Shown here: piece after piece, positions 3,620 to 51,900 of the stretch
How positions within the stretch are numbered: position 1 is the first letter of the stretch
How the letters are laid out: each line of letters starts with the position of its first letter
DNA from: Leucoraja ocellata
Lineage: Eukaryota
DNA length: 64,000 bases
Direction: 5' to 3'
Assembly (NCBI GenBank): GCA_036785375.1
Contig: JAWMAR010000030.1
Span: 6,014,001 to 6,078,000 of the forward strand
Made by a program: the position numbers and the translations under genes
The notes under the pieces: generated by a model
Database searches by the model: none
The model's input: only the letters and a program-made list of their open reading frames with translations
Told to the model about the DNA's origin: nothing

Positions 3620-6576
3620 TCATTCCTGGATTGACCCAGGTCTCCATGTATGACCACCACCTCCACCTTTCACAGCTGAGAACCTCGGTCTAGGGGTGGG
3701 AACCGATGGCTTCTTTTGCATATCTTCCCTGGACGGGAATTGAAGAACTGATGGTTCAAAGGCCACTTCCGAACTGTCTCCAGCTGCTCTCCAGTGTTGG
3801 TGAGCCAGCCCATTGCTGTAAGATACTTTGGCTGATACCGGTGGGGGGGAGTTTGGCGCCGACATCCACACGGGTTCAGCGAGTGTGGTGGCTGACCGCG
3901 GGGCGATAACTGTGGTAGTGATAGTCGGCACTGGGGTTGAGAAGCGTCTGATCTCGAACGCTCTTGCTGTCTTCACAGGGACCTGCTTAGTGGAGATAAA
4001 GGATTGTTGGCCTTGTGGCGTGGTTGGAGCACATCCTGACCACCCTTGTGATCTCACGGTGGATTCATCGCAACTGAACATGGCTGGATTTAATTGATAA
4101 GGCTGACGTCTCATGAAATCAATGGCTTTTATTCCAACCTTTTGGTTCCCACCTGGCCTCCACTTCTTCTCTGCTTTAGGGATTGTTTGGGACTTGCTGG
4201 CTGCTAATGGATATGATGGGGAATAAATGGGGTTATAACCAATTGGTGGTGGAGCCCGGATGTTGGGAGAATATTTCCACGTGGCAGGGAGGGAAGGAGT
4301 GGGAGATGGTCCTCTTGGCTGGGAAGAGTGGGTTGGCACTGAATCAACAATAAATTTGTCCATGCGACTTTGTCTCCTTGCAAAAAGTTCTGCTCCTTTT
4401 CCTTTCAACTGCAGGGTTGCTGGTGTATTGGTTCCATTCACCACTGGATAACAACTGCCAACTAACTGAGGCTTTAAATGAGGCTTTGGGGCTACAGGAG
4501 GAGGTATACTTTGCCTGCGTGCCTGAGACTGCATAAAGTTAGAAGCTTCGGCACCAAGACTCAAAAAGTCTTCTTCAGGTCCTGATTCAAATCCTGCTCC
4601 AATGTGATCTGGCTTCTTTTCATCCAGATTTTGTACCATGGAAAGAAGTTCAGGGTTTGGTGAGGTTTTTTTCTGTTCAGTCTTTGTAAACATCGGCTTC
4701 CTGGTGCTTCTGCGACGTGCCTCTTGCAAGATGCCAGTTTTAGAAGCAGGCACTGAAATGCGTTGCTCTCTTGTGGCCAAGCTCTCAGATGGCTGGTTGG
4801 ATGTCCAAGCTGTTGATGATGTGCTCGCAATGGAAGGGGCGTTCACTACGGCTTCAGAAGGGGCTTCGCTCCTTTTCTGTGGCAGCAGTGTTGAGGAAAC
4901 GCGAAAGGTAGCGGTGCTGGTGACCGGAGCCTGAGGTGGCGAATATGGAGTTGCTGTGAATAGTGACGTCATCAAGGGTGGTGGTGACATCACTGCAGGT
5001 GGTGGCGACATCATTGCCGGTGGTGGTGACATCACTGCAGCTGGTGGTGATGTCATGGTACAATCTGCTGACCTTGCTGCGCATGGTGGTGACATCGCTA
5101 TGATTGATGACACCATCACCGCCGGCTTTGGCGAGTTCACCGCGGCCGTTGTTGGCATCGCTGTGCATTCTGTTGTCATTGATGTAGACGATGGTAACAT
5201 GACTGTGGTTGGTGGTGACATCACAGCAGGTGGAGGTGACATCACAGCAGGTGGAGGTGACATCACAGAAGGTGGAGGCGACGTCACAGGAAGTGGTGAC
5301 ATCACAGGAGGTGGTGGTGACATCACAGCAGGAGGTGGTGACATCACAGCAGGTGGTGGTGACATCACAGCAGATGGTGGTGACATCACAGCAGATGGTG
5401 GTGACATCACAGCAGGTGGTGGTGACATCACAAGAGGTGGAGCTGACATCACAGCCGGTGGTGGTGACATCACAGCAGGTGGAGGTGACATCACAGCAGG
5501 TGGAGGTGACATCACAGCAGGTGGAGGTGACATCACAGCAGGTGGTGGTGACATCACAAGAAGTGGATGTGGCATCACAGCAGGTGGTGGTGGTGGTGGT
5601 GCTGATATTAAAACAGCTGCTGGCAAATAATGTGTTCCCATTCTCATTGGCACTGAAGCTTTCATTAGTTCAGGTTGAGGGATGGCATTCACAGTTGGCC
5701 TGGAGACTACCGCTGCTGGAGGTGAGAAAGGTTTTGTTGGTTTGTTTTGCACAGCAGCTTGTTCCCAGGGTTTGACAGGAGCTGTATTTGTTGCACCTTG
5801 CCGATACAGCACTGGAGCACAGACAGAGTGTACAGGACTCACATGGCTCTGTTGACACCCTGGAGTAAATGGTCTTGCTGTCCAATTTGCCACCCCAGGT
5901 AGGCCAGGGGGACCTTGTACGGTGTGCTGTGAATGGTGCTGCTCACTGGGCCTTGGGTAACTGGTCTCTGCACGTACTATTGGCGACAGATTCATTTCTG
6001 TGCAGTAGTTCAATGCGTCCGAGGCTGGATTCCCAGCACACACAGTCGTACTCCTGGACCAGGCAGGGACTCCATTCATCGCGCTGCACCTCATCACTTC
6101 AGCCTCTGGCTTGGCTTTCATTGGTAAATTGTGTTGTGTCTGAATTGGAGGTTCCTCCAATGCATAGTCCTTTGCTCGTTGTCTCTGATGTTCAAATAAT
6201 ATAACGCCCTTCCCTTTGGTTGCAGTTAGACCATGGGGCTCAGATTTGGGCTTTTCAATGTCCAGGTAAGAACTGTCCCAGTCTGATCCCATTGACTGAT
6301 TTGTCAAACTTTTTGCATCAGAAAACGCATCTTCGTCAAATTCAGACTCACTGGTAGGCAGCAGTTCCCCGTCCTCGTCCATACTCTGCTTCTCCTCGTC
6401 TACACTTCCATAACTAACGAGGGTGTACTTCTTTGCCCTTTGACGGCGCTTCTTAAACATAAGAACCCCCTTTGAGTGAGGATTTGGTGCAGAGGTGAGG
6501 AGAGATGCGATGGTCTTGCATTTTGTCCTGGCCTCCTTCGCTTGCTTCTCCTGTACACTTTCACTCCGATGCAACT
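3620..6576 (-). CDS. SYNPO2L: SYNPO2L (synaptopodin 2-like / CHAP) last coding exon (exon 4)
   Basis: Long ORF with synaptopodin-family motifs: LHRSESVQEK..KEARTKCKTIASLLTSAPNPHSKGVLMFKKRRQRAKKYTLVSYG, SPNPELLSMVQNLD, GFESGPEEDFLSLGAEA, LKGKGAELFARRQSRMDKF, WKYSPNIRAPPPIGYNP, and C-terminal HTWRPG. Acceptor ttctgacattgcag|AGTTGCAT at 6577/6576, phase 1. Stop TGA at 3622-3620. Confidence 0.95.
4952..5578 (-). repeat. Coding 21-bp minisatellite, 30 heptad units, consensus VMSPPPA (GTGATGTCACCACCACCTGCT)
   Basis: Directly visible tandem array. The 627 nt equal 209 codons (29 heptads plus one 6-aa unit), and the register is kept through the degenerate middle. Confidence 0.95.
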
Positions 6577-7029
6577 CTGCAATGTCAGAACACAAAGGAA
6601 TAAACTAACAAGCTTCTGAAACATTACTGTGAACACAAGAGAATTACACATCCAAGATTCCAAGTGTAACAAAATAATCCCGCAGCACCAAAGGGTATTT
6701 TCCTTAATCAGCCTTGTTCAAAACAACAACAATCCCTCACATATTCTTCATGTTATGCTGCATTGGTTTTAATCACAAATGGAAAGTGATATGGAAGATA
6801 TTAACTGAGAAGTGATGAAAGTAATCAGATCCGTTTTAAACAAAATGTATATTTTAAACATAATCTCAGTTTGTGAAGTGTTGGACAATATCTCGGTCCA
6901 GGACTGTGGAAAAAAGAAGTGTCGAGGATTGAATCTTTTGCCCTTATGGAGATTTACCATCAAACAAAGTAATAGCGTAAGACAGTATGGAGATTCCCAC
7001 GATTCTGTTGCCTGACATTAACTCTCAGT

Positions 7030-7540
7030 GAGCTGGTGCTGTCTGAGTCAGATTCTGGGTACAAATACCACCCCAAAATCAGTCAAAAAAGTTTTAAAAA
7101 AAACTACACTGGTTCTCCACAAGGATACGGCCCTGTTGCAGAATTTCAGATAAGGTCATAAACCTTCTCCCTCTCAGGTAGTCATAGAAAAAGGGACATG
7201 GCATTCTCCCTGGTGCCCAGGGCAATATTGATCACCCAAATAATACCAGTAAAAAAAAAAATAGAAACTCAAAATGCTGAATAAATTTAAATGTAAACAG
7301 AAAATGTTGGAGATACTCAGCAGGTCAGGCAGTATCTGAAGAGAGAGAGAAACAGAGTTAATATTTCAGGTTGGAGACAATTCATCAGAACTCTAGCGTT
7401 TTCTATTTCACTTACGTGGATTACCTGGTTATTATGTTGGTGATCCCTTGTTGAGCACAAAGTGGCTGCAGTATATCCCAATTTAAAATGGGATTACATT
7501 TCACAAGCTCATCTCAATCAACTATGGGTTATCCCAATGG
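7030..7540 (+). mobile_element. Degenerate Deu-domain SINE interrupted by a Penelope-derived repeat (~7270-7410)
   Basis: tctccctggtgcccagggcaatattgatcacccaaataataccagtaaaa, then the insertion, then gattacctggttatt..gcacaaagtggctgcag. The halves are collinear with the copy at 3140-3546. Confidence 0.55.
7354..7394 (-). ncRNA. Candidate minimal type I hammerhead ribozyme inside a Penelope pLTR-derived repeat
   Basis: Minus strand AGAGTT-CTGATGA-ATTGTCTCCAACCT-GAAA-TATT-AACTCT. It has a 6-bp stem I, CUGAUGA and GAAA cores, a palindromic minimal stem III (AUAU) and NUH = AUU. Stem II is weak. Confidence 0.5.
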
Positions 7541-7904
7541 TAAAGGACCCAAATCCTTGATGGCTGCCTTCCTCAGAAGCTGCATTGATACTGGGGTATG
7601 AGCTGACAATGTCATTACTAACACAAACCATACCTGAACCAGGAGGGTATACTGTAACTATACACAGGAGTAACTTAATTCTCCATCACCGTGTGTTTAG
7701 CAACACCAAGATTAATTATTTAAATTGCTGGCATTAATACACAATATATTTATTTCAACAACCCATGGGCAAAATCTTTATCACACCACTGATGTCATCT
7801 TCACAATGAAATGCTTTAACACATTCTTTGAAAATTAAAAGACCACCTCGAAACCCTGCGAAACTCAACAGTGTATCTGCATTCTGTGATCTGAGTCACA
7901 GAGA

Positions 7905-8228
7905 ATGCAGCATAGAAACAGGCTCTTCGGTCCACTGAGTTCCTTGTTGGTCATCAGCAACCTTTTTACACATAGACTGCGTTAATCAATTGTATTTATT
8001 CTCCCCACATTCTTATCAGTGCTCCCGGAATCTATCACAAGGGGCAATTTCCTGTGCCCAATTTCCACCCTGCCTGTCTAGAACATAGGAGGAAACTGGA
8101 GCACTTGAAGAAAACCTATGCATTCACAGAGAGAACATGCAAGCTCCCCTCAGACAGCACCTGAGGACAGGATTGAACTTGGGTCTCTGGCACTGTAAGA
8201 TCGACTCTGCTAACTACACCACTGTGGC
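7905..8228 (-). mobile_element. tRNA-derived SINE with CR1-type tail (HE1-like)
   Basis: B-box-like GTTCAATCC on the minus strand (~8170-8180). Body and tail (gcctgtttctatgctg) are shared with copies at 33011, 57233 and 60025. Confidence 0.7.
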
Positions 8229-10794
8229 TGAGGAAATACAAGCAGATCAGGCAAATCAATGATGCCAGCTGCATTAAATGATCTCCTCACAGAGGCTGAG
8301 TAGGATTGGCAAAGAAATGGAAAGCTGATTGCCCTAAGTGTCTTTGAGTAGCTGAGCAAAGATAGTGCCCAAGATGTAAGATTAAAAACCCTGCTGCTCT
8401 GGCCAAATTGTGCACTAAAGCTCAGACGAGATCAGAAGCACATCGACTGCGTGACCTCAAGCACAGAAACAGCTGGAGAGACTCAACAGGTTGAGCAGTA
8501 TCTGTGGTGAGAAGGGAATGGTCGACGTTTCTGAGAAGGGAAAGTAATTGAGACTCTCAATCCTGAAGGAGAATCTTGACCCAAAACATCGACAATTCAC
8601 TTCTTTCTACGATGCTGCCCACCCCGATGAATTCCTCCAGCAATTTGCTTTTTGCTGCAGATTCCAGCATCTATAGTCTCTTGTACCTCCCTTGTTTGAC
8701 CTTGTCCGTTCCTTCTAAGGCACGGGTTAGGCACAGTGCTGGTGAATTGATGTAAAGGAGCAAATCACATATTGAAGATTGATCATCTTGTGGTGTAAAG
8801 GGTGCACGTGTCAGACTGAGAACCTGTGGAATCTGCTCCTGTGGTACTCTGAGGGATGAGAACTTAAGTCTGATGGAATTATGCCAGAGGCAGGGTGTTT
8901 ACAAGTATATTTTCCAGATTCACAATGTCCCATCTCCAGGAATGGCCTGTGAACTTCCCCAATATAAATTACGTTACTTTTATTAGAAAGGAAATTGTTG
9001 ATTAGAACCTCATCGGTCTGTTATTCCACAGTTCACCACTGGGGACACCGCAGTACATCAGTGGCAGGAAGATAAAACTGCAACAGGATAAATCAAGAAT
9101 AATTCATCTGAAGTCGGAAAGGATACCTTAGAGGTGGGGACTGAATTCCTTCTGTGAAAATACCCCCTGCCTGTAGTTCTGCTTCTTCCAAGAAGCAACT
9201 AGACCTCACCTTGACTTTGTGAAAAATACAATGAGCAATCAGCAAGTATGTTTTATTTTTCATTCCCCAGATATAAGCATCACAGATAAGACCAGCATTA
9301 AATACCCTTCTCATATTACCCTGAGCTGCCTTATTTATACACCACTGAAATCTATATGTTGAAGGTACTTCCACTGTGCTTTTTCATTGTTCTGTCCCAG
9401 CAAAGCTTCATGCAGGTATCACTTAACAGGGTTAACACTTAACATTTAAACAGGCTACAGTCATCTGCTATCTTTGACTTTCCAATGGTGGACTTTCTGG
9501 TTTAGGAGATGCTTCCAAAGGATTCTTGCCAATGGACCACAGTTTGCAGTAATGATGCACTTGTTATTGAAGGGTGTGAATCCTTAGGGTGGTGGATGGA
9601 ATGATAACAGAATGATGACCTGTTTTGTCCTGGATAGTGTTGAGCTTCTTCAAGATTCCTGGCACTGAACCACACTAGACAGGTAAAGATTATGACGTTA
9701 TGCTTCTGAATTGCATTTAGATAGCGGAATAGCTTTGGGGATTCATAGACTCCTGCTCTGGAGATGACCTATCTCTGACATGATATATTTACGTGAAATT
9801 TCACGACCGGTGCTTGTTCTAAAGCGATGGAAGGCGCCGACAGTGCTATCCAATGGTATATATTCTCCATTTACCTCCCGTCTCACATTCACCAGGATTG
9901 CTGGGCTCCATGACAGACTTTGTCCCAACAAGAACCAGGGAACTGATTTCACATTGCGATGAGAGTGACTGCTATGTCATCATGATAGTACGTGTGGCAT
10001 CAAAAAGCTTTGTAAAACTCAAGTCAATGGGCTGTAAGGGGGGGGGGGGGGGGGGGGACACTTCAATTGTCAATGTCGTGCATTGCACCATACAAGATGG
10101 TTGTGGCTGTTGGGGGTCAATCATCTCAGCCCCAGGAGAGTACTGCTGGAGTTCCCGAGAAGAGAGTCCAAGACCCAGCCATCTTCAGCAGCTCCATCAG
10201 TGACCACCCTTCCATTACAAGAAACCGCGGGATGTTTAATACCGTTCAGAACTCCTCAGCAAAAAAGACGAACAATCTATCCCTCCATGCTTGAAACACA
10301 GCTGGAAAACATTCAGCATGCGCTAATAAGTAGCAGGTAACATTTGTACCACAGGAGTGTCAGGCAATGGTCATCTCCAGCAAGAGAGTGTTTAACCACT
10401 TCTTGATATTCAACAGAATTACTATTTCTGAGTTCCTCGTCATCTACTTTCTGGTGGTCAGCATTAGTCAGGAAATAAACTGGACCAAAAAAAACAAAAC
10501 AAAAAATAAGTGCTGGAGTAACTCAGTGGTCAGACATGGACTCTGGCGAACATGGATAGTTGATGTTTCGGGTCAAGGCCTTCTTCACACTTTGTGTCCT
10601 TTTATTTTGTAAACCAGTATTGGCAGTTCCTTGTGTCTTCACTGAACTGGATCAGCCACTTCAGGATGGCGACTACAAAAGCAGATCCAAAGCTATGTAT
10701 TATCAGTGGGTGACTCACTAACACCTCAACACTTTTCTACCATTGACAAAGTGCAAGGCAGGTGAATGAACACAACTCCAGCAACATTAAGAAT

Positions 10795-11071
10795 AAGGAG
10801 TAATTCATTTAGAACGGAGAGGAGGAAACACTTTTTCTCACAGAGAGTGGTGAGTGTGGAATTCTCTGCCTCAGAGGGCGGTGGTGGCAGATTCTCTGGA
10901 TGCTTTCAAGAGAGAGCTAGATAGGGCTCTTTAAAATAGCAGAGTCAGGGATATGGTGAGAAGGCAGGAATGGGGTACTGATTGGGGATGATCAGCCATG
11001 ATCACATTGAATCGCGGTGCTGGCTCGAAGGGTCAAATGGCCTACTCCTGCACCTATTGTCTATTGTCTAT
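10795..11071 (+). mobile_element. CR1/HER1-type LINE 3' fragment
   Basis: FFSQRVV-like RT tail coding, 3' stem-loop ...ggcctactcctgcacc and a (CTATTGT)n tail. Inserted into an older LINE remnant (ttaagaa/tcaagaa flanks). Confidence 0.85.
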
Positions 11072-11154
11072 TCAAGAAGGTAAATACTATCAGGGACTCA
11101 GCAGCATTCACAAGAAAGATAACAGTGAATGAAGAAAGTGACTCATCATCTCTT

Positions 11155-11731
11155 AGAAACATAGAAACATAGAAATTAGGTGCAGGAGTAGGCCATTCGG
11201 CCCTTCGAGCCTGCACCGCCATTCAATATGATCATGGCTGATCATCCAACTCAGTATCCCGTACCTGCCTTCTCTCCATACCCCCTGATCCCCTTAGCCA
11301 CAAGGACCACATCTAACTCCCTCTTAAATATAGCCAATGAACTGGCCTCAACTACCCTCTGTGGCAGAGAGTTCCAGAGATTCACCACTCTCTGTGTGAA
11401 AAAAGTTCTTCTCATCTCGGTTTTAAAGGATTTCCCCTTTATCCTTAAGCTGTGACCCCTGGTCCTGGACTTCCCCAACATCGGGAACAATCTTCCTGCA
11501 TCTAGCCTGTCCAACCCCTTAAGAATTTTGTAAGTTTCTATAAGATCCCCTCTCAATCTTCTAAATTCTAGAGAGTATAAACCAAGTCTATCCAGTCTTT
11601 CTTCATAAGACAGTCCTGACATCCCAGGAATCAGTCTGGTGAACCGTCTCTGCACTCCCTCTATGGCAATAATGTCCTTCCTCAGATTTGGAGACCAAAA
11701 CTGTACGCAATACTCCAGGTGTGGTCTCACC
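11155..11731 (-). mobile_element. Young CR1/HER1-type LINE, 5'-truncated
   Basis: Intact ORF2 C-terminus VRPHLEYCVQFWSP..LRGDLIETYKILKG..FFTQRVVNLWNSLP and a (GTTTCTAT)n tail. Confidence 0.93.
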
Positions 11732-13742
11732 TTTCTCCAGGCCAATTAAGGATGGGCAGTAAATGCTGCCCAGATGTCAAAAAAACCCATGACCAAAATT
11801 GCAGAAGAATGTTGACAGACTGGAGGCTAACATTAATGAATCTTCAGATGATCGAGGAAAAATCATTACACCGCAGGTTTATTGGAAGTATCCCCAAAAC
11901 ACATTTCTGATCGATGTGTTAAAATGTTGCTGTTATTTTTCCAGCTGACCTTCTATGAGGTAATCTCAATTTATTCTGTGAGAAAGGGTAACATTCCAGC
12001 CTCAATGAATTGCACATTGTATCGATGTGTTAAGTGCTGACGTGTTTGGGAAAAACAATTGCATTTATTAACTATTGACATATGACTGGGATATTGAAAC
12101 ATACCCATTTGCTTTCGGTTCAACTGATTTCATTTTGATCATTTCTATTAAATGTTTCTTTTTGACCAGCTAATGAGTTGCTCTTTCTATAACACTGGTA
12201 TAAAAAGCTATAAGAACATGCATGGAGTCTGCTCAAATGCATCGATTGAATATTTAAGCCAATTCAAGAGATGAGCTTATTTGAGGTGCCGGACCCCTCC
12301 TGGAAGAGAAAAATATTAATATATATGTACTGTAATAGAAGATTTCGTTTATCATGAATGGTAGTGAAATGGAAACCTGACCAATAAAAACTGCCAGTTG
12401 GAAATTTTATTGCACCGAGATGGATATGCTAGATGGTTGGGTGTGGTAGGATTTTGTAACTAGATATCACCTGGAATTGAGCCTGTTCCGGTCCAGGGGT
12501 CAAGGCAAGGAATGGGACCAGGAAGGGATTCTTTAAAAATCAGGGAACGGTAGAAGTGGTTGGCAAAAAAAGGACAGAGGCTCAGAGTTGGGGTGTAATG
12601 ATCAGGTGAGTGGCCAGTGGAGAGGAGGGGAAGAATAAGTGGACCCCCCCCCCCCCCCCCCCCCATAGGATCTCATGGGATCATTGGGTTCACCAAATGG
12701 CACAAGATAAACCAATTTGAAGTGTAGGGGTTGACACCACTTTGGGGGTTCATGGCATTTGGCTTTGTTAGCCCAGACCAACGGGAAGGAAACACAGTTT
12801 GGAGATCAGAGAGCTTTCGGACCAAGGTCTTGGAGCGTGGGGTATATCAGTGCAGTGTGGCTGTAAGGCCAAAGTGTCCTAACCAAAATCTGCAGTATTA
12901 AGACATCATTGTCCCAAGAGTTGTTCCCAGGACAATTTAGTCCAATTTTCCCTTTAATGTTCCAAAAGGGGCATTGGACTGGGATTGATGCATTCTGTGC
13001 AAAACTGATGCAAAAATTGTTTCAGGAACGCAGGGGTGAATCACTTCAAGAAAACCATAGTGTAAGTTCTGGAATTACATAAAATCACACAGAAGTTATC
13101 ATAATTCAATTTCACTTTGGCAAAAAAAAAGTCTATTTTAAAGCATGAAACACTGGGGGGAAAAAAGGCTCTTCAAAATTTTAAGCTCATGTTAATTTTG
13201 CTACAACAACCACCAGCAACAGGTCCTCTCCCTCTTCTCCCACCAGTTGTAAACACTAGAGACCCGAAACATTGTAAAATGTCACTGTTCACTATCAATA
13301 ACGTGCCTAGGGTTGAAAAATAAAGCCAGATCATTTCTTTACGTTCTCAAAGGAAAACCTACACCACCAGAGTCTAGCTGAGTAAATAGTTGCAGTCACA
13401 AAGTGATGATTTTCAGAGCAAACGTCTTTGGCACCATTGGTAGTTTTGAAACTGTACATCTATAATTTTTAACTGTATAAGATATACCACGGCTAACAAC
13501 CATTTGAGTATTTGTTTCTGTGGTAAGGAGTAAACTGAAATTTCCATACTCTTGCAGTAAATATTTAAAACACATTGAATAAAATAATTTGGTGCTGAAA
13601 TGTTGACCTTCCATCTTACCTTGGGTTACAGGCATGAAACTAATTTCAATTGTAAGACTTTTAAGGATAGAACAAAAATTAATTGTAGACCATTCACAGT
13701 AAAATTAGCTAACACTTTAAAAGTATGCACACATTCAAATAC

Positions 13743-13845
13743 CTGCATAAACTTGATGCTTGCTGGTTTTCTTTTCTGGTTCTTCAGTTTGTGATCTCTG
13801 CATTCTGATAATCTTTGGAGTATTACTTTGTGTCCTCAGTTCCAT
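13743..13845 (-). CDS. SYNPO2L: Probable alternative first coding exon of SYNPO2L (PDZ-less short isoform, CHAPb-like)
   Basis: An ATG-initiated, stop-free 103-nt segment (MELRTQSNTPKIIRMQRSQTEEPEKKTSKHQVYA+G) ends at donor GCAG|gtattt in phase 1. Splicing to exon 4 gives ...VYA-E-LHRSES. As I recall, the mammalian short isoform has the similar junction ...FYA-E-LQRAES after a leader of similar length. Confidence 0.7.
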
Positions 13846-15252
13846 ATAGACACTGTAATCACTCATAAACTGGAGTGAGCCCAAGACTCTTAAGTCTGCC
13901 AAGCTCTCTTATCGCCTTTTACTCCCCTTGTCAGACCAGACAAAAGGACGGTTAAGAACTTCTGTCCGTTTGACTATTTTTACCCATTACATACCAACTA
14001 GTTGTGTGATGGGTTTAAGCATCTGTCTGCGCTCAAACCGGCCTTCAAGAGATTTTTTTCAGACAAGTAAAGCTAAAAGAAAATTGTGGCGATTGACACA
14101 AGAATGAAATGTGTCAAAGTGTCAGGCAGTGATGTCATTAAAATACTTTTCATACTCATAACTGTGGGATAAGCAAGAAAACATTGTTTCAAAAGTCAAG
14201 TAAACATGGTCAAAAGATGAATATACTTTAGATCTATAAATTGACCCCAGTGGAAAAAAGACGTTGGCTGCAAAGTGTGGCAGTAAGCAATATTAAGAGG
14301 ATAATTCTTGTCTCCTTATATAATTTAAGGCATGTTTAATTTTAAATGCTGGAGTTTAAATAGGTCATTAGTGTCAGCAATTCATGAATGTTAGACACAA
14401 AAAAAAAAATCCTCTTTATCCTCAACTCTCTTCAATGGCATTTCAATACTAGAAGCAACTTCCTCAAATCTTCATGAGTTCTAAGAGCAAATTAATCCAT
14501 TCGGCCCATTACGTCTATGCCGCCATTCAATCGTGGCTGACCTGTCTTTCCCTCTCAACCCCATTCTCCTGCCTTCACCCCATAACCGCTGCCACCCTTA
14601 CTAAAGCCTCAATTTCCTGAGCCCAACCTTGGATTTTCTGACACCACGCGCTCTCATTCCCTTTCCCACCATCCCTACACATCTTGCAGCCATCACAATC
14701 TAGCAATCTAAAACTCCCTATAAAGCCCTACTTTATCGTTCTTATCGCCAGTGACTTGCAGTCCCCAAATCTTACTTCCAAAGTTTTCTGGTCTCTACCT
14801 AGAAATCTCATTGACAAGGGTTGCTATATTAAACCATTGTCACACCAATACAGTGGAATCTGTATTTACCTGAACACTTGCATTGATCCCACCCTATAAT
14901 TATCCCAAAGTAATACATTTTTCTTCATCAAATAATAGAATGTTGTTTTATTCGAAAGGTTTAAAGGATAGCACTATTGTAGTAAATTAGAAATATATAT
15001 ATATATAAATGCACGGCGCTTTCATGGGTATGTTTAAACAACTGTTTTCAAGTCTTGACCATAAGATCACACAGTATCAAGTAACAGACAGCAACTGACG
15101 TGCTTTTCAGAGAGTTGACCTCATATCCTCTAAACCTCTCATGTTCCACTTAATAGCAGCACATTGAACACATCAGAAAAGCCCAGAGCATCGGAGGCCT
15201 TTAGGTTTAAAATTATTTGAGACTATCTTAGAAGGTAACTAAAAAAACTTAC

Positions 15253-16360
15253 TGGCTTGCTTGGCCTTCTCTTTGTAGGTGGTGGTTAGCAACTCGTCCA
15301 CGGGGTTGTTCACTGGGCCCACCATGGGCACCAGCTGTGTATCCCTCAGGCTGGGCATGCTGGGCAGGCTGGCGGTCGGCAGCAGCTTCTGCTCAGGTGA
15401 GCCGGCCTGGGCGTGTACCTCCTGGAAGCCGCTGTCAGTTTCCGACGTGCCCAGGATCCCCTGTCGCAGAGGAACATCTTCGCCGCTGGACTGGGCAGAC
15501 CAGGTGTTGGCATAGGCGGGGTTGGTGTTGGGGTTGGTGTTGGGGTAGGTGGGGTTGGTGTTGGGGTAGGTGTTGGGGTAGGTGGGGTTGGTGTTGGGGT
15601 AGGTGTTGGGGTAGGTGGGGTTGGTGTTGGGGTAGGTGGGGTTGGTGTTGGGGTAGGTGTTGGGGTAGGTGGGGTTGGTGGTGAGTTTGGTGATGGGGTA
15701 GGTGGTGTTGGGGTAGGTGGGGTTGGTGTTGGGGTAGGTGGGGTGGTAGTTGGGATAGTTGGGGTTGGTGGTAGGGTAACAGGGAGTGGGCTGAGTGTGG
15801 CTGCTGGGGGTGAGGATAGTGTGGGCGAGACCAGGCTTGGGGTAAGTAGCCATCTCCACTTTGGGCTGCCAGATATTAATCTTGGCTTCCACCTTCCTGG
15901 GCTGAAACATCCTCGGGATTGCCCCTTGGGCGAGGCTGGGATGATCCAGACAGGCGGATGCTGCGGGTTCCGGCGACAGGGGACTCAGAGGGGAGCGGCA
16001 GTCGCTCCACACCGGCTCCGGGCGCTGTCGTACTCGCTCTGCTCCGACGTCTCGTCGGCCGATCCCCGCACTGGCGCTCTGGGACCCGGCCAGCGCTTCT
16101 TCTGCCTCCGCTGCCTCTCGCTCGCCGTGTGATCCGCGTCGCTGTCGGTCTCACCGTAATACGCCTCGCTGTCCGGGGGCGATGTGTAGCACTCCGGCTG
16201 GCCACGGAGCCCGCTGGTGCCGCGGGATGCCTCTGCCTTCACACTGGGGGGCTCCCGCATTAGCCCGGGGACTTTTGAAGTTTCTTGGCTCCGTTCACAG
16301 GGGGCGGTGGCCGGGCTGGTCTCAGATTGAAAGCTGCCAGTTGCCGGGCTGCACGAAATC
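15253..16360 (-). CDS. SYNPO2L: SYNPO2L exon 3 (contains an apparent 1-nt frameshift at ~16020-16022)
   Basis: Acceptor cctcttctag|GATTTCG at 16361/16360 (phase 2) opens a frame encoding SPPDSEAYYGETDSDAD, a SYNPO2L motif. The 3' part in another frame encodes ETDSGFQE..LVPMVGPVNNPVDELLTTTYKEKAKQA and ends at donor GCCA|gtaagt (15253/15252, phase 1). The exon is 1108 nt, whereas the flanking phases require 3n+2. Confidence 0.88.
15505..15778 (-). repeat. Coding minisatellite of mixed 21-bp/12-bp units (NPTYPNT / YPNT) in SYNPO2L exon 3
   Basis: Plus strand is (ggggtaggtggggttggtgtt)/(ggggtaggtgtt) tandem units. Translation contains 6 NPTY plus NPNY and NPAY. Confidence 0.93.
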
Positions 16361-23812: not shown

Positions 23813-24001
23813 GTTTAGGAAGGAACTGCAGATGCTGGTTTACATTGAAGATAGACACAAAATGCTGGAATAACTCAGTGCGTCAGGCAGCGTCTCTGAA
23901 GAAAAGAAATAGGTTACGTTTCGTGTCGAGACCCTTCTACATCCTCAGTCCGTTGATGTTGCCTGACCCGCTAAGTTACTCCAGCATTTTGTGTCTATCT
24001 T
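23813..24001. repeat. Penelope pLTR-derived inverted-repeat element (representative of ~25 copies in the window)
   Basis: agatagacacaaaatgctggaataactcag..gtcaggcagcgtc and its reverse complement gatgttgcctgacccgctaagttactccagcattttgtgtctatct. Confidence 0.85.
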
Positions 24002-24009
24002 TAATATCT

Positions 24010-37464: not shown

Positions 37465-37619
37465 GAAGATAGACACACTTAGCGGGTCAGGCAGCATCTC
37501 TGGAGAAAAGGAATAAGTGACGTTTTGGGTCAGACCCTTCTTCAGTCTGACCTGCTGATTTGCTCCAGCTTTGTGTGTCTATCTTCGGTGTAAACTAGCA
37601 TCTGCAGTTCCTTCCTACA
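37465..37619. mobile_element. Penelope pLTR-derived hairpin-type short repeat with a 14-bp target-site duplication
   Basis: CATGGATATACTTG at 37451-37464 and 37620-37633 flanks two inverted partial copies of the repeat. Confidence 0.85.
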
Positions 37620-41204: not shown

Positions 41205-41970
41205 GCCCAAAGTCCGATATCTACTGTTTCCGTGGTTCGATGTGTGGACTTTTATACATCGGCGAGACCAAACATTGACTGGGCGATCGTTTTGCTGAAC
41301 ACCTATGCTGGGTCTGTCTATACGAGGTTTCGGCCTGAAACGTTGCCTATTTCCTTCGCTCCATAGATGCTGCTGCACCTGCTGAGTTTCTCCAGCATTT
41401 TTGTGTACCTTCCATTTTCCAGCATCTGCAGTTCTTTCTTAAACACTGGGTCTATACGACGTGGGCTTACGCGATCCCCTGGTTGCCAAACACTTTAACT
41501 CCCCTTCCCATTCTGACCTTTCTGTCCTGTGCCCCCTCTGATGTCAGATTGAGGCCAAACCCAAATTGGAGCACAAATTTTGCTTCGACAGCTTACACCC
41601 CAGTGGCATGAGTATTGATTTCCCTAACTTCAAGTAACGCTTGCAGCCCCCTCTTTCTCTCTCCATCATTCCTCCATCCTAGTCATTGTACTAGTCTCTC
41701 TCTCGGTGGGTTTCATTGAATGTATAACTTGTTTTCTCCTAGTCCGCAGCTAACAACGTACCACATTTCCTTGATCATCGTTAAGTTTGTCTGCATTTCT
41801 TTCATTCATCTGTTCTATATTTCTCTCTATCATCATCCATATCTCTCGTTGCCATTTCCCCTGACTGTCTGAAGAAGGACATATAATTAGTGTACTGGAG
41901 TCTGAAGCAGGGTCTAGACCCGGAATGTCATATATTCCTTCTCTCCATAGATGTTGCCTGATCCGCTGAG
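41205..41970 (+). mobile_element. Penelope-like element 3' fragment (GIY-YIG endonuclease remnant plus pLTR)
   Basis: CGLLYIGETKH*LGDRFAEHL..VAKHFNSPSHS..PSGMSIDFPNFK*, followed by the same short repeat found throughout the window. Interrupted at ~41325-41445 by another pLTR-type copy. Confidence 0.85.
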
Positions 41971-45328: not shown

Positions 45329-45870
45329 GTGTAGGAAGGAACTGCAGGTGCTGGTTTACACACAAGATAGACACAAAAATCCAGCGTAACTCAGAGAGTC
45401 AGACAGCATCTCTGGAGAAAAGGAATAGATGATGTTTCTGGTTGAGGCTCTTCAGATTGAGTGTCAGGGGAGAGGGAAGCAAGACATATGAAAAGGTACA
45501 CAGATCGTCCAGTCTGCACTTGGCATCGCTGATATCGGAGTCCAGACCTGGAACAGCGGATACAGTAGATGAGTTTGGAGGAGATGTAAATGAACTCTTT
45601 CTTACCTGAAAGGACGGTTGAGGTTCTTGGACAGAGTTGAGTGAGGAGGTATATGGTCAGGCATTGCACCTCCTATGGTTGCTGGGGAAGGTACCTGGGG
45701 AGGCGGTGATTTGGGTGGGAATATTAACCAGTTGCTGTCTAGGGAAAGGGGGGGAGATGGTAAGATGTGACGAGTGGTGGGATCCCGTTGTAGTTGGCAA
45801 AAATGTTGGAGGATTATGTGCTGTATGCAACGGCTGATGGGGTTAAAGATGAGGACTTGCGGCAAGTACA
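45329..45870 (-). mobile_element. Penelope-like element fragment with internal deletion plus pLTR
   Basis: QHIILQHFCQLQRDPTTRHILPSPPLS and SSKLIYCIRCSRSGL segments, followed by the pLTR-type repeat. Confidence 0.8.
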
Positions 45871-48529: not shown

Positions 48530-48975
48530 CATAGAAACATAGAAATTAGGTGCAGGAGTAGGCCATTCGGCCCTTCGAGCCTGCACCGCCATTCAATATG
48601 ATCATGGCTGATCATCCAACTCAGTATCCCGTACCTGCCTTCTCTCCACACCCCCTGATCCCCTTAGCCACAAGGGCCACATCTAACTCCCTCTTAAATA
48701 TAGCCAATGAACTGGCCTCAACTACCCTCTGTGGCAGAGAGTTCCAGAGATTCACCACTCTCTGTGTGAAAAAAGTTCTTCTCATCTCGGTTTTAAAGGA
48801 TTTCCCCCTTATCCTTAAGCTGTGACCCCTTGTCCTGGACTTCCCTAACATCGGGAACAATCTTCCTGCATCTAGCCTGTCCAACCCCTTAAGAATTTTG
48901 TAAGTTTCTATAAGATCCCCTCTCAATCTTCTAAATTCTAGAGAGTATAAACCAAGTCTATCCAGTCTTTCTTCA
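48530..48975 (-). mobile_element. Young CR1/HER1-type LINE 3' fragment, near-identical to 11161-11605
   Basis: By manual comparison, 5 mismatches over 445 bp relative to the copy at 11161. Confidence 0.93.
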
Positions 48976-51900
48976 ATAGGATACTATAGAACTTTATTTA
49001 TTCCAGGGAGGAGTAGATAAATAAAGTTCTATCCTATCTTATGAAGACTATGAACTGATTATTAATTTTGAACAGATATCTGAGAAGATAAAGTAAAATA
49101 AAACTACTTGGTGATAATTAAACCACATGGGACTTTAGAACGATGTTGAAACAAATTATAATTTGTTGCCTCGTCTAGATCACGTGGAAGGTGAGCAGAG
49201 TTCATGAAATAAGTTTCTTTTAAGGATAATCCAAAATACCTTATGGTAAATGCAGCTGATTACTGTGTGTCCTCTCTTTGCTCAACAGTGAGCATGAATG
49301 GTTGCAATAAAACACATTTGACCAAGTTTTGTTTTGAATTCAGTGTGCAAAGACCAGAGTGATTTTAGTGGAATAAAAATGAACTGCAGATGCTGGTTTA
49401 TGTCAAATCTGACACAAAATGCTAGAGCAACTCAGCTGAGACTCTAACATTTTGCGTCTACGTGAGGTGATTTTAGTGGACTGCCAATTGAAGAAAGATT
49501 TATCTGTGCTTCCTAAATTATAACTGCTTTCCTAAAACCTTTAACTGAAATGATTTACTGTTTTGCATATGATTTGTCTTCAGTGATCAGTTACTGTGAA
49601 GTTGCAATTAAGGAAGATTGGCCAATATGTGATGAAGCTTATAACAATAAAAGATTTTAATAACATGCAAGATCCTGAACGGGAATGGCAGAATAGACGT
49701 TGTGATATTGTTTCTTCCAGGGACTTTGTGCTACATTTACAGAATTTTGAAGTTAGGGTTGTCTCAAGTTGGACATGTAAAACGAAGATTGTACTTTCAT
49801 AGGAAAGTAAATCTCTGATATTCTCTATCTTTGAGGACAGTGATTGCTTAATCTTGGTTTATACATTCTTGAAATTAAAACATTTTTCAATATTGAGCAT
49901 ATGAGGATTTGGGCAACGTGGCAGGACACATAGAATCACCATGACGATTATCAGAGCAGCCTGTCAATTAGCATTCGTACTGCTAATCTGAAATATCAGT
50001 GTAAAAAGGCATGGTGTCGAACTAGGAAGTTTTGATGCAAAGGACATGCAGTGCTGGAGGTACACAACAGGTCAGGCAGCATCTCTGGAGAACATGAATA
50101 AGTGATGTTTCAAGACCCATCTTTAGACTTGACCCGGAACATCACCTATCCGTGTTCCTGACCGGCTGTGTTACTCCAGCACTTTGTGTCCTTTTGTGTA
50201 TTAACCAGTATCTGAGTACAGCAGATTCTGGAATCTTGAGCAAACAAAAAAGTGCCAGAGGAACACAGCAGGTCAGATGGCATCTGTGGAGGGAAACTGA
50301 CAGATGACACATCTGGTCGGAACCTTTCTTTAGACTCTGAAAAGGATCCTGACACAAAATGTTGTCTATCCACAGATGCTGCCTAACCCGCTGAGTTCCA
50401 CCAGCACTTTTTTGTTTGCTCAAAATTCTAGCATCTGCCATCTCTTGGGTATCCATTTTGGAGTATTGCATACAGGTTTGGTCTCTGCATTTAAGGATAG
50501 ATAGGGTTGCTTTGGGGACATTGCGGAGAGGTTTATCTAGACCCCCGGGTTAAAATTGTTGCTGAGTGATGAGAATTTGAGCAGGTTCGACCAATATTGA
50601 AGTTTTGAAGAATGGAAGATAATCTTAATGAGCCATATGATTTTGAGGAGGATTATCAAATACATTCTGAGTGGGTGATGTTTAGAACTAGGCATAGATT
50701 CTGATGATTGATCGACTCGTGCTTTGTTATTCTGAAGTATTTTCTTTGCACTTTCTGACTTTGTTTCCTCATTAAGACACTTTTCTCTACCTGCTGTTTC
50801 TATATAATATGATTTTGGGCCTTCCTTCTGTCCCTCCCTGTATTTGATGTGATGCAATTGTAATAAAATTAAGGTGTGTATTATTTTATAAATATCTCGC
50901 ACAAATTTGTGTTCATGTATCTTTGAGTTTTACATGTTAAAAAGATTAATTACAGTGGGCACAATTTTAACCATTTATGCTAGGGAATTTTTAAAGTGAC
51001 AATAGTTAAAAGTTGGAGCTCAGCCACTTAGGAGGAAATTCAGAACGTTTTTTAATGACAACTGATATTTGAAATTTTCTCCCACTATCATATGTCTGTA
51101 ATATTTGGTTATTTAAGAATGGATCCTATTTCTGTTGCTTATGAAGCTATGATAAATAAATATCTTGGCGTAATAGTCAGCTTATCAAATTTCTGAATAG
51201 CTTCCTTTTCGTTCCTATTAGTCATACCTCTTTGGCAATCCAGCATTTTGGTAAGTGGTTGAATTTGATTATGAAATGCTGCAATAACTACACTTCGCTG
51301 AAAAATAAATTGGCCTCCAAGTGTATTGGTATTGCTGTTTCTTTATCTTGCAATGCTGAGAAATCCATCTTCTCTAGAGATCAGTATGTTTATGGGATGC
51401 AAAATAATGGAGAGATGAGAAAAAATGTCAAGATCAGAATTGAACAGAATAGTGGGGGAAGGATGATTTTCTCAGTGACATTTGACATTTGAACTAAATT
51501 GAACTTGACATTTGAACTAAATATTTCATTCAGAATGTAATAATATTCTCTGAAACATTAAGATTTAAAATTGGATTAAAACATTTCCACATGTTGATCA
51601 GCGAGTTAATTTATGGGGGCAACACAATATATGGGGACAACCAAGTGGGCACCTTAGTTTGACATTCTTTTGCTTATCATGAGCCTGAATGCTTTGCTGA
51701 AGCTTCTCGTGGGCAAATCCTTAGTAAGGTTCCTCAGTTGTCTTTATAAAAAAAACTTGCTTTAATTATAAAAAGGGTTTCTTCAGTCTTAGTTAACAAT
51801 GTGTCACAAAGTGCTGGAGTAACTCAGAATGTCAGGCAACATCTTTGGAGAACATGGATAGGCGATGTTTCGGGTCAATTTATTTGGAAAAACCTCAAGT

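What the first reader, a model, noticed from the sequence alone, without database searches (positions are those of the whole stretch)
7354..7394. Candidate intact-core hammerhead ribozyme on the sense strand of SYNPO2L intron 3
Seen: the transcribed (minus) strand reads AGAGUU-CUGAUGA-AUUGUCUCCAACCU-GAAA-UAUU-AACUCU. It has a perfect 6-bp stem I, all core residues (C3 U4 G5 A6 N7 G8 A9, G12 A13 A14), A10.1-U11.1, a self-complementary minimal stem III (AUAU) and an NUH triplet AUU. Predicted cleavage is between 7360 and 7359, ~780 nt upstream of the last-exon acceptor, in sequence shared by both isoform pre-mRNAs. Established: Penelope-like elements carry minimal type I hammerheads with palindromic stem III that cleave as dimers, and intronic hammerheads are known in amniote genes. 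Inference: this is the only copy I found that keeps both the core and stem I, so it could be a retained or exapted self-cleaving RNA. Caveats: stem II is weak (UUG/CAA with a CC bulge), and ACGU to AUAU can arise by plain CpG decay.
Basis: partly seen in the sequence, partly recalled or inferred. Interest (0 to 1): 0.7.

Follow-up and report, generated by a model that had tools for sequence, protein, structure and literature searches.

The report
Decayed Penelope hammerhead in SYNPO2L intron
This is a worn-down end-piece of a common jumping gene lying in a muscle-gene intron; it keeps the letters of a self-cutting RNA core but has lost one of the stems that hold it together, so it is most likely inactive, ordinary debris.

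Summary
The 41-nt motif, its core, the AUU site and the intron-3 position are as described. It is the 5' end of a ~110-nt fragment of a dispersed repeat (33 hits in the window) that marks the ends of Penelope-like elements. It is the window's only copy with core plus stem I, but it is not rare: 174 genome matches of its old subfamily keep both, and 64,750 matches keep core, stem II and cleavage triplet. Stem II here is broken. Two of the six stem-I pairs come from flanking DNA, at about the chance rate. No intact dimer partner lies in the pre-mRNA. Orthologous copies in four related species show no detectable constraint above the intron background (low power), and the breaks persist uncompensated. 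Verdict: neutral relic of a known motif; exaptation about 3%. The scan noted this element family before in other genomes.

The parts
7286..7392 (-). 5'-truncated fragment of the old-subfamily Penelope-like terminal repeat (hammerhead plus downstream tail; the 3' edge may extend to about 7240)
   Evidence: nhmmer hit, alignment with old and young copies, local alignments to 7 relatives
7393..7394 (-). two flanking nucleotides that extend stem I from 4 to 6 bp; likely chance
   Evidence: 2 of the 26 other distinct copies also reach 6 Watson-Crick pairs
7389..7392 (-). stem I, 5' strand (family part)
   Evidence: pair probability 0.45-0.91 in the 41-mer, 0.07-0.14 in a 351-nt context
7382..7388 (-). 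core C3-A9, intact
7381..7381 (-). extra A between A9 and 10.1, typical of PLE minimal hammerheads
   Evidence: 62 of 71; PMC4209133 discussion
7368..7380 (-). stem-loop II, broken: 2 of 5 family pairs, 10.1-11.1 = U·U
7364..7367 (-). G12 A13 A14 A15.1, intact
7360..7363 (-). 15.2/16.2 = U/A (CpG site decayed at both positions), U16.1, U17; predicted cut 7360/7359
   Evidence: this pair reads TA in 7, CA in 10, TG in 8, CG in 2 of 27 distinct copies
7354..7359 (-). stem I, 3' strand
6577..15252 (-). intron 3 of the synaptopodin-family (SYNPO2L-like) host gene
   Evidence: GT donor and AG acceptor in compatible phase

Best explanation
The motif is the hammerhead-bearing 5' edge of a ~110-nt fragment of a dispersed repeat in intron 3, with an intact core and a broken stem II, and it is likely an inactive, neutrally decaying relic of a Penelope-like retrotransposon end. 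Shown: homology to the repeat family; the family motif lies just 3' of GIY-YIG-like ORF ends; loss of G10.1 and two further stem-II pairs; both CpG sites decayed; same insertion in four related species. Inferred: in the parent element the motif would cut tandem element RNA as a double hammerhead; this copy arrived as a 5'-truncated insertion before species A-E split, kept its non-CpG core by chance, and is simply spliced out with the intron without cutting the pre-mRNA.
For: 33 family hits in the window. 12,191 exact 32-nt and 64,750 core+stem II+NUH matches in the genome, reversed-pattern controls 0. Young copies follow ORF remnants with RT-like and GIY-YIG-like sequence (Pfam GIY-YIG E=0.0055, below cut-off); one old-subfamily locus, L068, has a same-strand endonuclease remnant upstream (E=4e-4). 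Core+stem I survives in 174 matches, fewer than the 512 of a 20-nt tail control of the same subfamily, so the subfamily shows no excess retention of the core. Of the first 30 of the 174 (27 distinct), 19 keep at least 3 of 5 stem-II pairs and 21 keep 10.1-11.1; this copy keeps 2 and lacks it. No other sense-strand copy in the gene has an exact core. A single intact min-HHR showed no cleavage and dimers little (PMC4209133). Orthologues: 1 change observed in species B-D against about 1.4 expected.
Against: All 20 core and stem-I positions are intact, which has probability about 0.04 at this copy's own tail divergence of 15%, before allowing for its selection as best of 33. Species C and D show no substitution in the motif, and E none in about 7377-7403. 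Species B appears to carry G at 10.1, the family state. The double CpG change kept the stem-III palindrome. In-context folding does not separate live from dead copies: stem II was predicted (P>0.5) in only 0-2 of 30 intact young copies, and the designed dimer was not the lowest-energy form for any of 6 motifs tried. The conservation test has low power.
Confidence: 0.88

Rival explanations
1. The site keeps slow residual cleavage without a function: either as a homodimer of two transcripts through the AUAU palindrome, or as the substrate half for another old-subfamily transcript that supplies an intact stem II.
For: The substrate half (U16.1, U17, stem I 3' strand) and the palindrome are intact; some old copies keep a full stem II (L071, L072); PLE hammerheads are reported to act as dimers (PMC4209133, PMC6765202 passages).
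Against: A homodimer uses the broken stem II twice (+4.6 kcal/mol for the designed dimer against -9.6 for the best fold, though that test did not favour intact motifs either). The abundant young subfamily has a different second stem-I pair, so it would mismatch. No partner in cis.
Confidence: 0.09
2. The host has domesticated the motif as a deliberately weak intronic ribozyme that cuts part of the pre-mRNA 783 nt before the last acceptor and so tunes splicing or isoform output.
For: Sense strand of intron 3; 6-7 bp stem I; intact core; identical in species C and D; present in all of A-E. Conserved intronic hammerheads exist in amniotes (PMC6155905 passages).
Against: Stem II breaks are shared by A, C and D, with G10.1 also absent in E, and are uncompensated; motif divergence matches the intron (1 observed, about 1.4 expected); the neighbouring flank 7405-7470 is just as invariant; extra stem-I pairs occur at the chance rate (2 of 26 others).
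Confidence: 0.03

Closest known systems
Minimal type I hammerheads (min-HHR) in pLTRs of metazoan Penelope-like elements (Cervera and De la Pena 2014, PMC4209133)
   Same: Core, extra nucleotide after A9, palindromic 15.2-16.2 with no stem III loop, short stem I, mostly solitary truncated copies, family motif 3' of a GIY-YIG-like ORF.
   Different: This copy lacks the conserved G10.1-C11.1 pair and a stable helix II, has no ORF and no tandem partner. The read parts name fishes, coelacanth, Xenopus and reptiles, not cartilaginous fishes; supplements not seen.
Conserved intronic type I hammerheads of amniotes (RECK, DTNB; as reviewed in PMC6155905)
   Same: Sense-strand intronic position; retroelement ancestry.
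   Different: Those are conserved across amniote groups and of canonical build; this one is a minimal PLE type, stem II broken, with no detectable constraint.
Non-LTR retrozymes (bioRxiv 10.64898/2026.07.22.740005; PMC7229834 listing only)
   Same: Type I hammerhead, PLE-related, reported in one chondrichthyan genome.
   Different: Retrozymes are tandem repeats with a hammerhead in each unit; this is a solitary fragment.

Membership tests
PLE min-HHR | Core CUGANGA ... GAAA and NUH | tested here: met
PLE min-HHR | Extra nucleotide between 9 and 10.1 | tested here: met
   A7381; A in 62 of 71 exact-core copies
PLE min-HHR | G10.1-C11.1 closing pair | tested here: not met
   U·U here; paired in 21 of 27 distinct subfamily copies
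PLE min-HHR | Stable helix II | tested here: not met
   2 of 5 pairs; no fold; alternative register +5.9 kcal/mol
PLE min-HHR | Palindromic 15.2-16.2 | tested here: met
   U/A; the same state in 7 of 27 copies, as CpG decay gives
PLE min-HHR | Helix I of 4-5 bp | tested here: met
   4 family pairs plus 2-3 from flanks
PLE min-HHR | Position in a pLTR 3' of an RT/GIY-YIG ORF | tested here: inconclusive
   Seen for the young subfamily (Pfam hit below cut-off) and 1 same-strand case among 60 old-subfamily loci (L068); this copy has no ORF; no RT tree built
PLE min-HHR | Second motif in the same RNA for dimer cleavage | tested here: not met
   0 of the 9 other sense-strand hits between 6577 and 39,800 has an exact core
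PLE min-HHR | Self-cleavage | not testable with these tools
   needs an in vitro assay
Domesticated intronic hammerhead (amniote type) | Sense strand of an intron | tested here: met
Domesticated intronic hammerhead (amniote type) | Conservation above flanks in orthologues | tested here: inconclusive
   1 observed against about 1.4 expected in B-D; E has 0 in about 7377-7403 and 0-4 in 7346-7376; low power
Domesticated intronic hammerhead (amniote type) | Canonical 4-bp helix II | tested here: not met
Domesticated intronic hammerhead (amniote type) | Loop-loop tertiary contacts | not tested
   no stem II to carry them
Non-LTR retrozyme | Tandem units, each with a hammerhead | tested here: not met
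   nearest family hit is about 1.1 kb away and lacks the 5' core

The most novel reading that the evidence does not exclude
A Penelope-derived hammerhead domesticated in a cartilaginous-fish lineage as an attenuated, stem-II-weakened cleavage site in SYNPO2L intron 3 that tunes last-exon splicing in muscle, a fish parallel to the amniote intronic ribozymes.
Probability: 0.03. Interest if true: 0.65.

Novelty: new member of a known kind. Interest (0 to 1): 0.1.

Why it matters
As found it matters little: one decayed copy among tens of thousands. If it cut the pre-mRNA and were conserved, it would show a ribozyme being recruited from transposon debris into gene regulation outside amniotes. The more usable fact is the family size: 64,750 well-formed matches in this assembly (which holds haplotype duplicates), against about 4,000 and 9,000 called remarkable for coelacanth and Xenopus with another descriptor (PMC4209133). 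That gives a large set for testing whether sense-strand intronic copies are selected against.

Tried and rejected
Rfam scans of the window and of 7250-7500 gave no hammerhead match; Rfam models do not fit stem-III-less motifs, so this is not evidence against the family. A strict pattern for a fully intact old-subfamily motif found 0 matches. An inverted arm upstream as the source of the longer stem I was not significant (9 of 100 shuffles as good; clear in 3 of 30 loci). All-against-all search for shared upstream sequence among 30 old loci gave no hit near the motif. In-context pair probabilities and cofolding did not separate intact from broken motifs. Sequencing runs: no RNA holder listed; raw RNA run X22 was read to about 6 in 100 and gave 2 partial reads under 95% alike, uninformative; run X15 had no contig over the unique flank, which proves nothing. 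A genome search with L068 returned the SINE nested in it, not longer element copies. The focal row of the alignment came out empty and was not used. PDB search gave only generic PDZ hits. Four papers asked for by id were not held (Lunse et al. on PLE dimers, the 2010 intronic-hammerhead paper, two on stem II), so the need for stem II and G10.1-C11.1 in catalysis is recalled, supported only by their conservation in PMC4209133.

Full report
Observation. The predicted cut 7360/7359 lies 783 nt before the acceptor. I located four exons of a synaptopodin-family gene: an N-terminal PDZ exon near 39.8 kb, a PDZ exon at 17.1-17.3 kb (Pfam PDZ), an exon ending at a GT donor at 15252, and a 994-codon last exon. 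The motif is therefore on the sense strand of intron 3. On its own the motif is not statistically striking: 8 core-pattern matches in the window against 5.25 +/- 2.35 by chance, folding z = 0.09, no Rfam hammerhead match.

What it belongs to. Iterated nhmmer finds 33 hits of the same repeat in the window. The copy spans about 7286-7392 and aligns over hammerhead and tail with an old and a young subfamily. In the genome (3.44 Gb, with haplotype duplicates) one exact 32-nt young motif occurs 12,191 times and a pattern with core, full stem II and NUH 64,750 times, one per 53 kb; reversed controls gave 0. Among the first 30 young loci several have RT-like and GIY-YIG-like reading frames directly upstream; Pfam GIY-YIG scored E=0.0055, below its cut-off, for 1 of 2 fragments. 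For the old subfamily, tblastn of 60 loci gave one same-strand endonuclease remnant upstream (L068, E=4e-4; about 365 nt from the motif once a nested SINE is set aside) and several on the opposite strand or downstream. The subfamilies differ by a compensated second stem-I pair (U-A in 31, G-C in 27 of 71 exact-core copies; partly fixed by my search patterns). This matches the minimal hammerheads of Penelope-like terminal repeats (PMC4209133, parts 1-2 of 4 read) and the 5'-truncated, often inverted insertions described in PMC8557442 (passages).

Is this copy special? In the window, yes: 3 of 33 hits keep an exact core plus NUH, and only this one has more than 2 bp of stem I. In the genome, no: 174 matches of the old subfamily keep core and 4-bp stem I, two of them this locus and its duplicate. 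A 20-nt tail control of the same subfamily matches 512 times, so core retention is not in excess; 5' truncation also lowers the core count, so this is a rough control. Of 30 loci chosen by the tail alone, 2 (apparently one haplotype pair) keep an exact core and 0 keep core plus stem I. The subfamily is old: median tail divergence 24%, this copy 15%. At 15% the chance that 20 sites stay intact is about 0.04, unremarkable for the best of 33.

Stem II. PMC4209133 lists an extra nucleotide after A9 and a highly conserved G10.1-C11.1. In the family register this copy has U·U, U·C, G-C, U-A, C·A. Of the first 30 of the 174 matches (27 distinct), 21 keep 10.1-11.1 paired and 19 keep at least 3 of 5 pairs; this copy keeps 2. 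Pairing the extra A with U11.1, which the old subfamily allows, still leaves two U·C mismatches next to it. Against leaning on folding: in longer context stem II was predicted in only 0-2 of 30 intact young copies, and cofolding favoured no designed dimer; the intrinsic energy and the comparison within the family carry the argument. That catalysis needs stem II is recalled; the primary papers were not held. PMC9901934 (passages) says only that, across five ribozymes, disrupting two pairs gives negative epistasis on average.

Stems I and III. The family supplies 4 stem-I pairs; the two outer pairs use flanking bases, and 2 of the 26 other distinct copies also reach 6 Watson-Crick pairs, near the 1 in 16 expected. 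The palindrome's inner pair reads TA in 7, CA in 10, TG in 8 and CG in 2 of 27 copies: plain CpG decay. A single min-HHR showed no cleavage and dimers little in PMC4209133 (PMC6765202 passages agree). None of the 9 other sense-strand hits in the gene has an exact core.

Orthologues. Contigs of four other coded species cover the insertion with its flanks, so it predates their split; the most distant, E, differs at 62 of 984 sites. Paralogues mask the motif in the difference tables, so I inferred its state by subtraction from each contig's total: C and D have no substitution in it; B has one, at 7380, giving G10.1; E has none in about 7377-7403 and 0-4 in 7346-7376. Background predicts about 1.4 variable sites for B-D (32 listed in about 940 nt) against 1 seen, and flank 7405-7470 shows no listed difference either. 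The test has low power and detects no constraint; the stem-II breaks are shared by A, C and D without compensation. RNA data were uninformative (see Tried and rejected).

Mechanism and verdict. The parent element would use the motif as a double hammerhead to process tandem RNA (inferred from PMC4209133). This copy is a truncated insertion that lost G10.1, two more stem-II pairs and both CpGs, kept its core by chance, and is most likely spliced out uncut (0.88). Residual functionless cleavage 0.09; domestication 0.03. Literature searches listed no paper devoted to shark or skate PLE hammerheads; bioRxiv 10.64898/2026.07.22.740005 (part 1 of 5 and passages) reports retrozymes in one chondrichthyan genome. 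Supplements of both key papers were not seen and may list this family. PMC6155905 and PMC2837043 were seen as passages. Earlier scan notes on other genomes reach the same reading; I consulted them after forming mine and count them as no support.

Noticed in passing
whole genome G000: 64,750 matches with intact hammerhead core, stem II and NUH, far above the about 4,000 and 9,000 reported for coelacanth and Xenopus (other descriptor; this assembly has haplotype duplicates).
   Followed up: partly
L031-L060, around 1500-1560: In young copies the predicted fold hides stem II once 10 or more flanking bases are included (P>0.5 in 0-2 of 30); by eye the purine-rich core strand is complementary to the pyrimidine-rich tail, a possible built-in off state.
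   Followed up: partly
G000:C30:7313738-7316888 (L001): An inverted second copy of the locus 1.3 Mb away on the same contig, 40 mismatches in 3,124 aligned bases; likely the other haplotype left in the assembly.
   Followed up: partly
window 7380, run X4: Species B appears to have G at position 10.1, the family state, while A, C, D and E have U; a reversion or gene conversion (inferred).
   Followed up: partly
window 4963-5639 and 15470-15809: Coding tandem repeats in the host gene: a 21-nt unit (proline-rich heptads) in the last exon and a 12/9-nt unit in exon 3.
   Followed up: no
window 41219-41634 and 45743-45863: GIY-YIG-like Penelope ORF remnants; the first is interrupted by a terminal-repeat copy at 41326-41402.
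   Followed up: no
window 8462-8652, 23845-24004, 37467-37583, 50243-50419: Back-to-back inverted pairs of the terminal repeat, the usual Penelope insertion form.
   Followed up: no
window 10986-11247: 79-bp inverted repeat in intron 3, part of a young repeat also at 48530-48829 (99%); source of spurious MIR530 Rfam hits.
   Followed up: no
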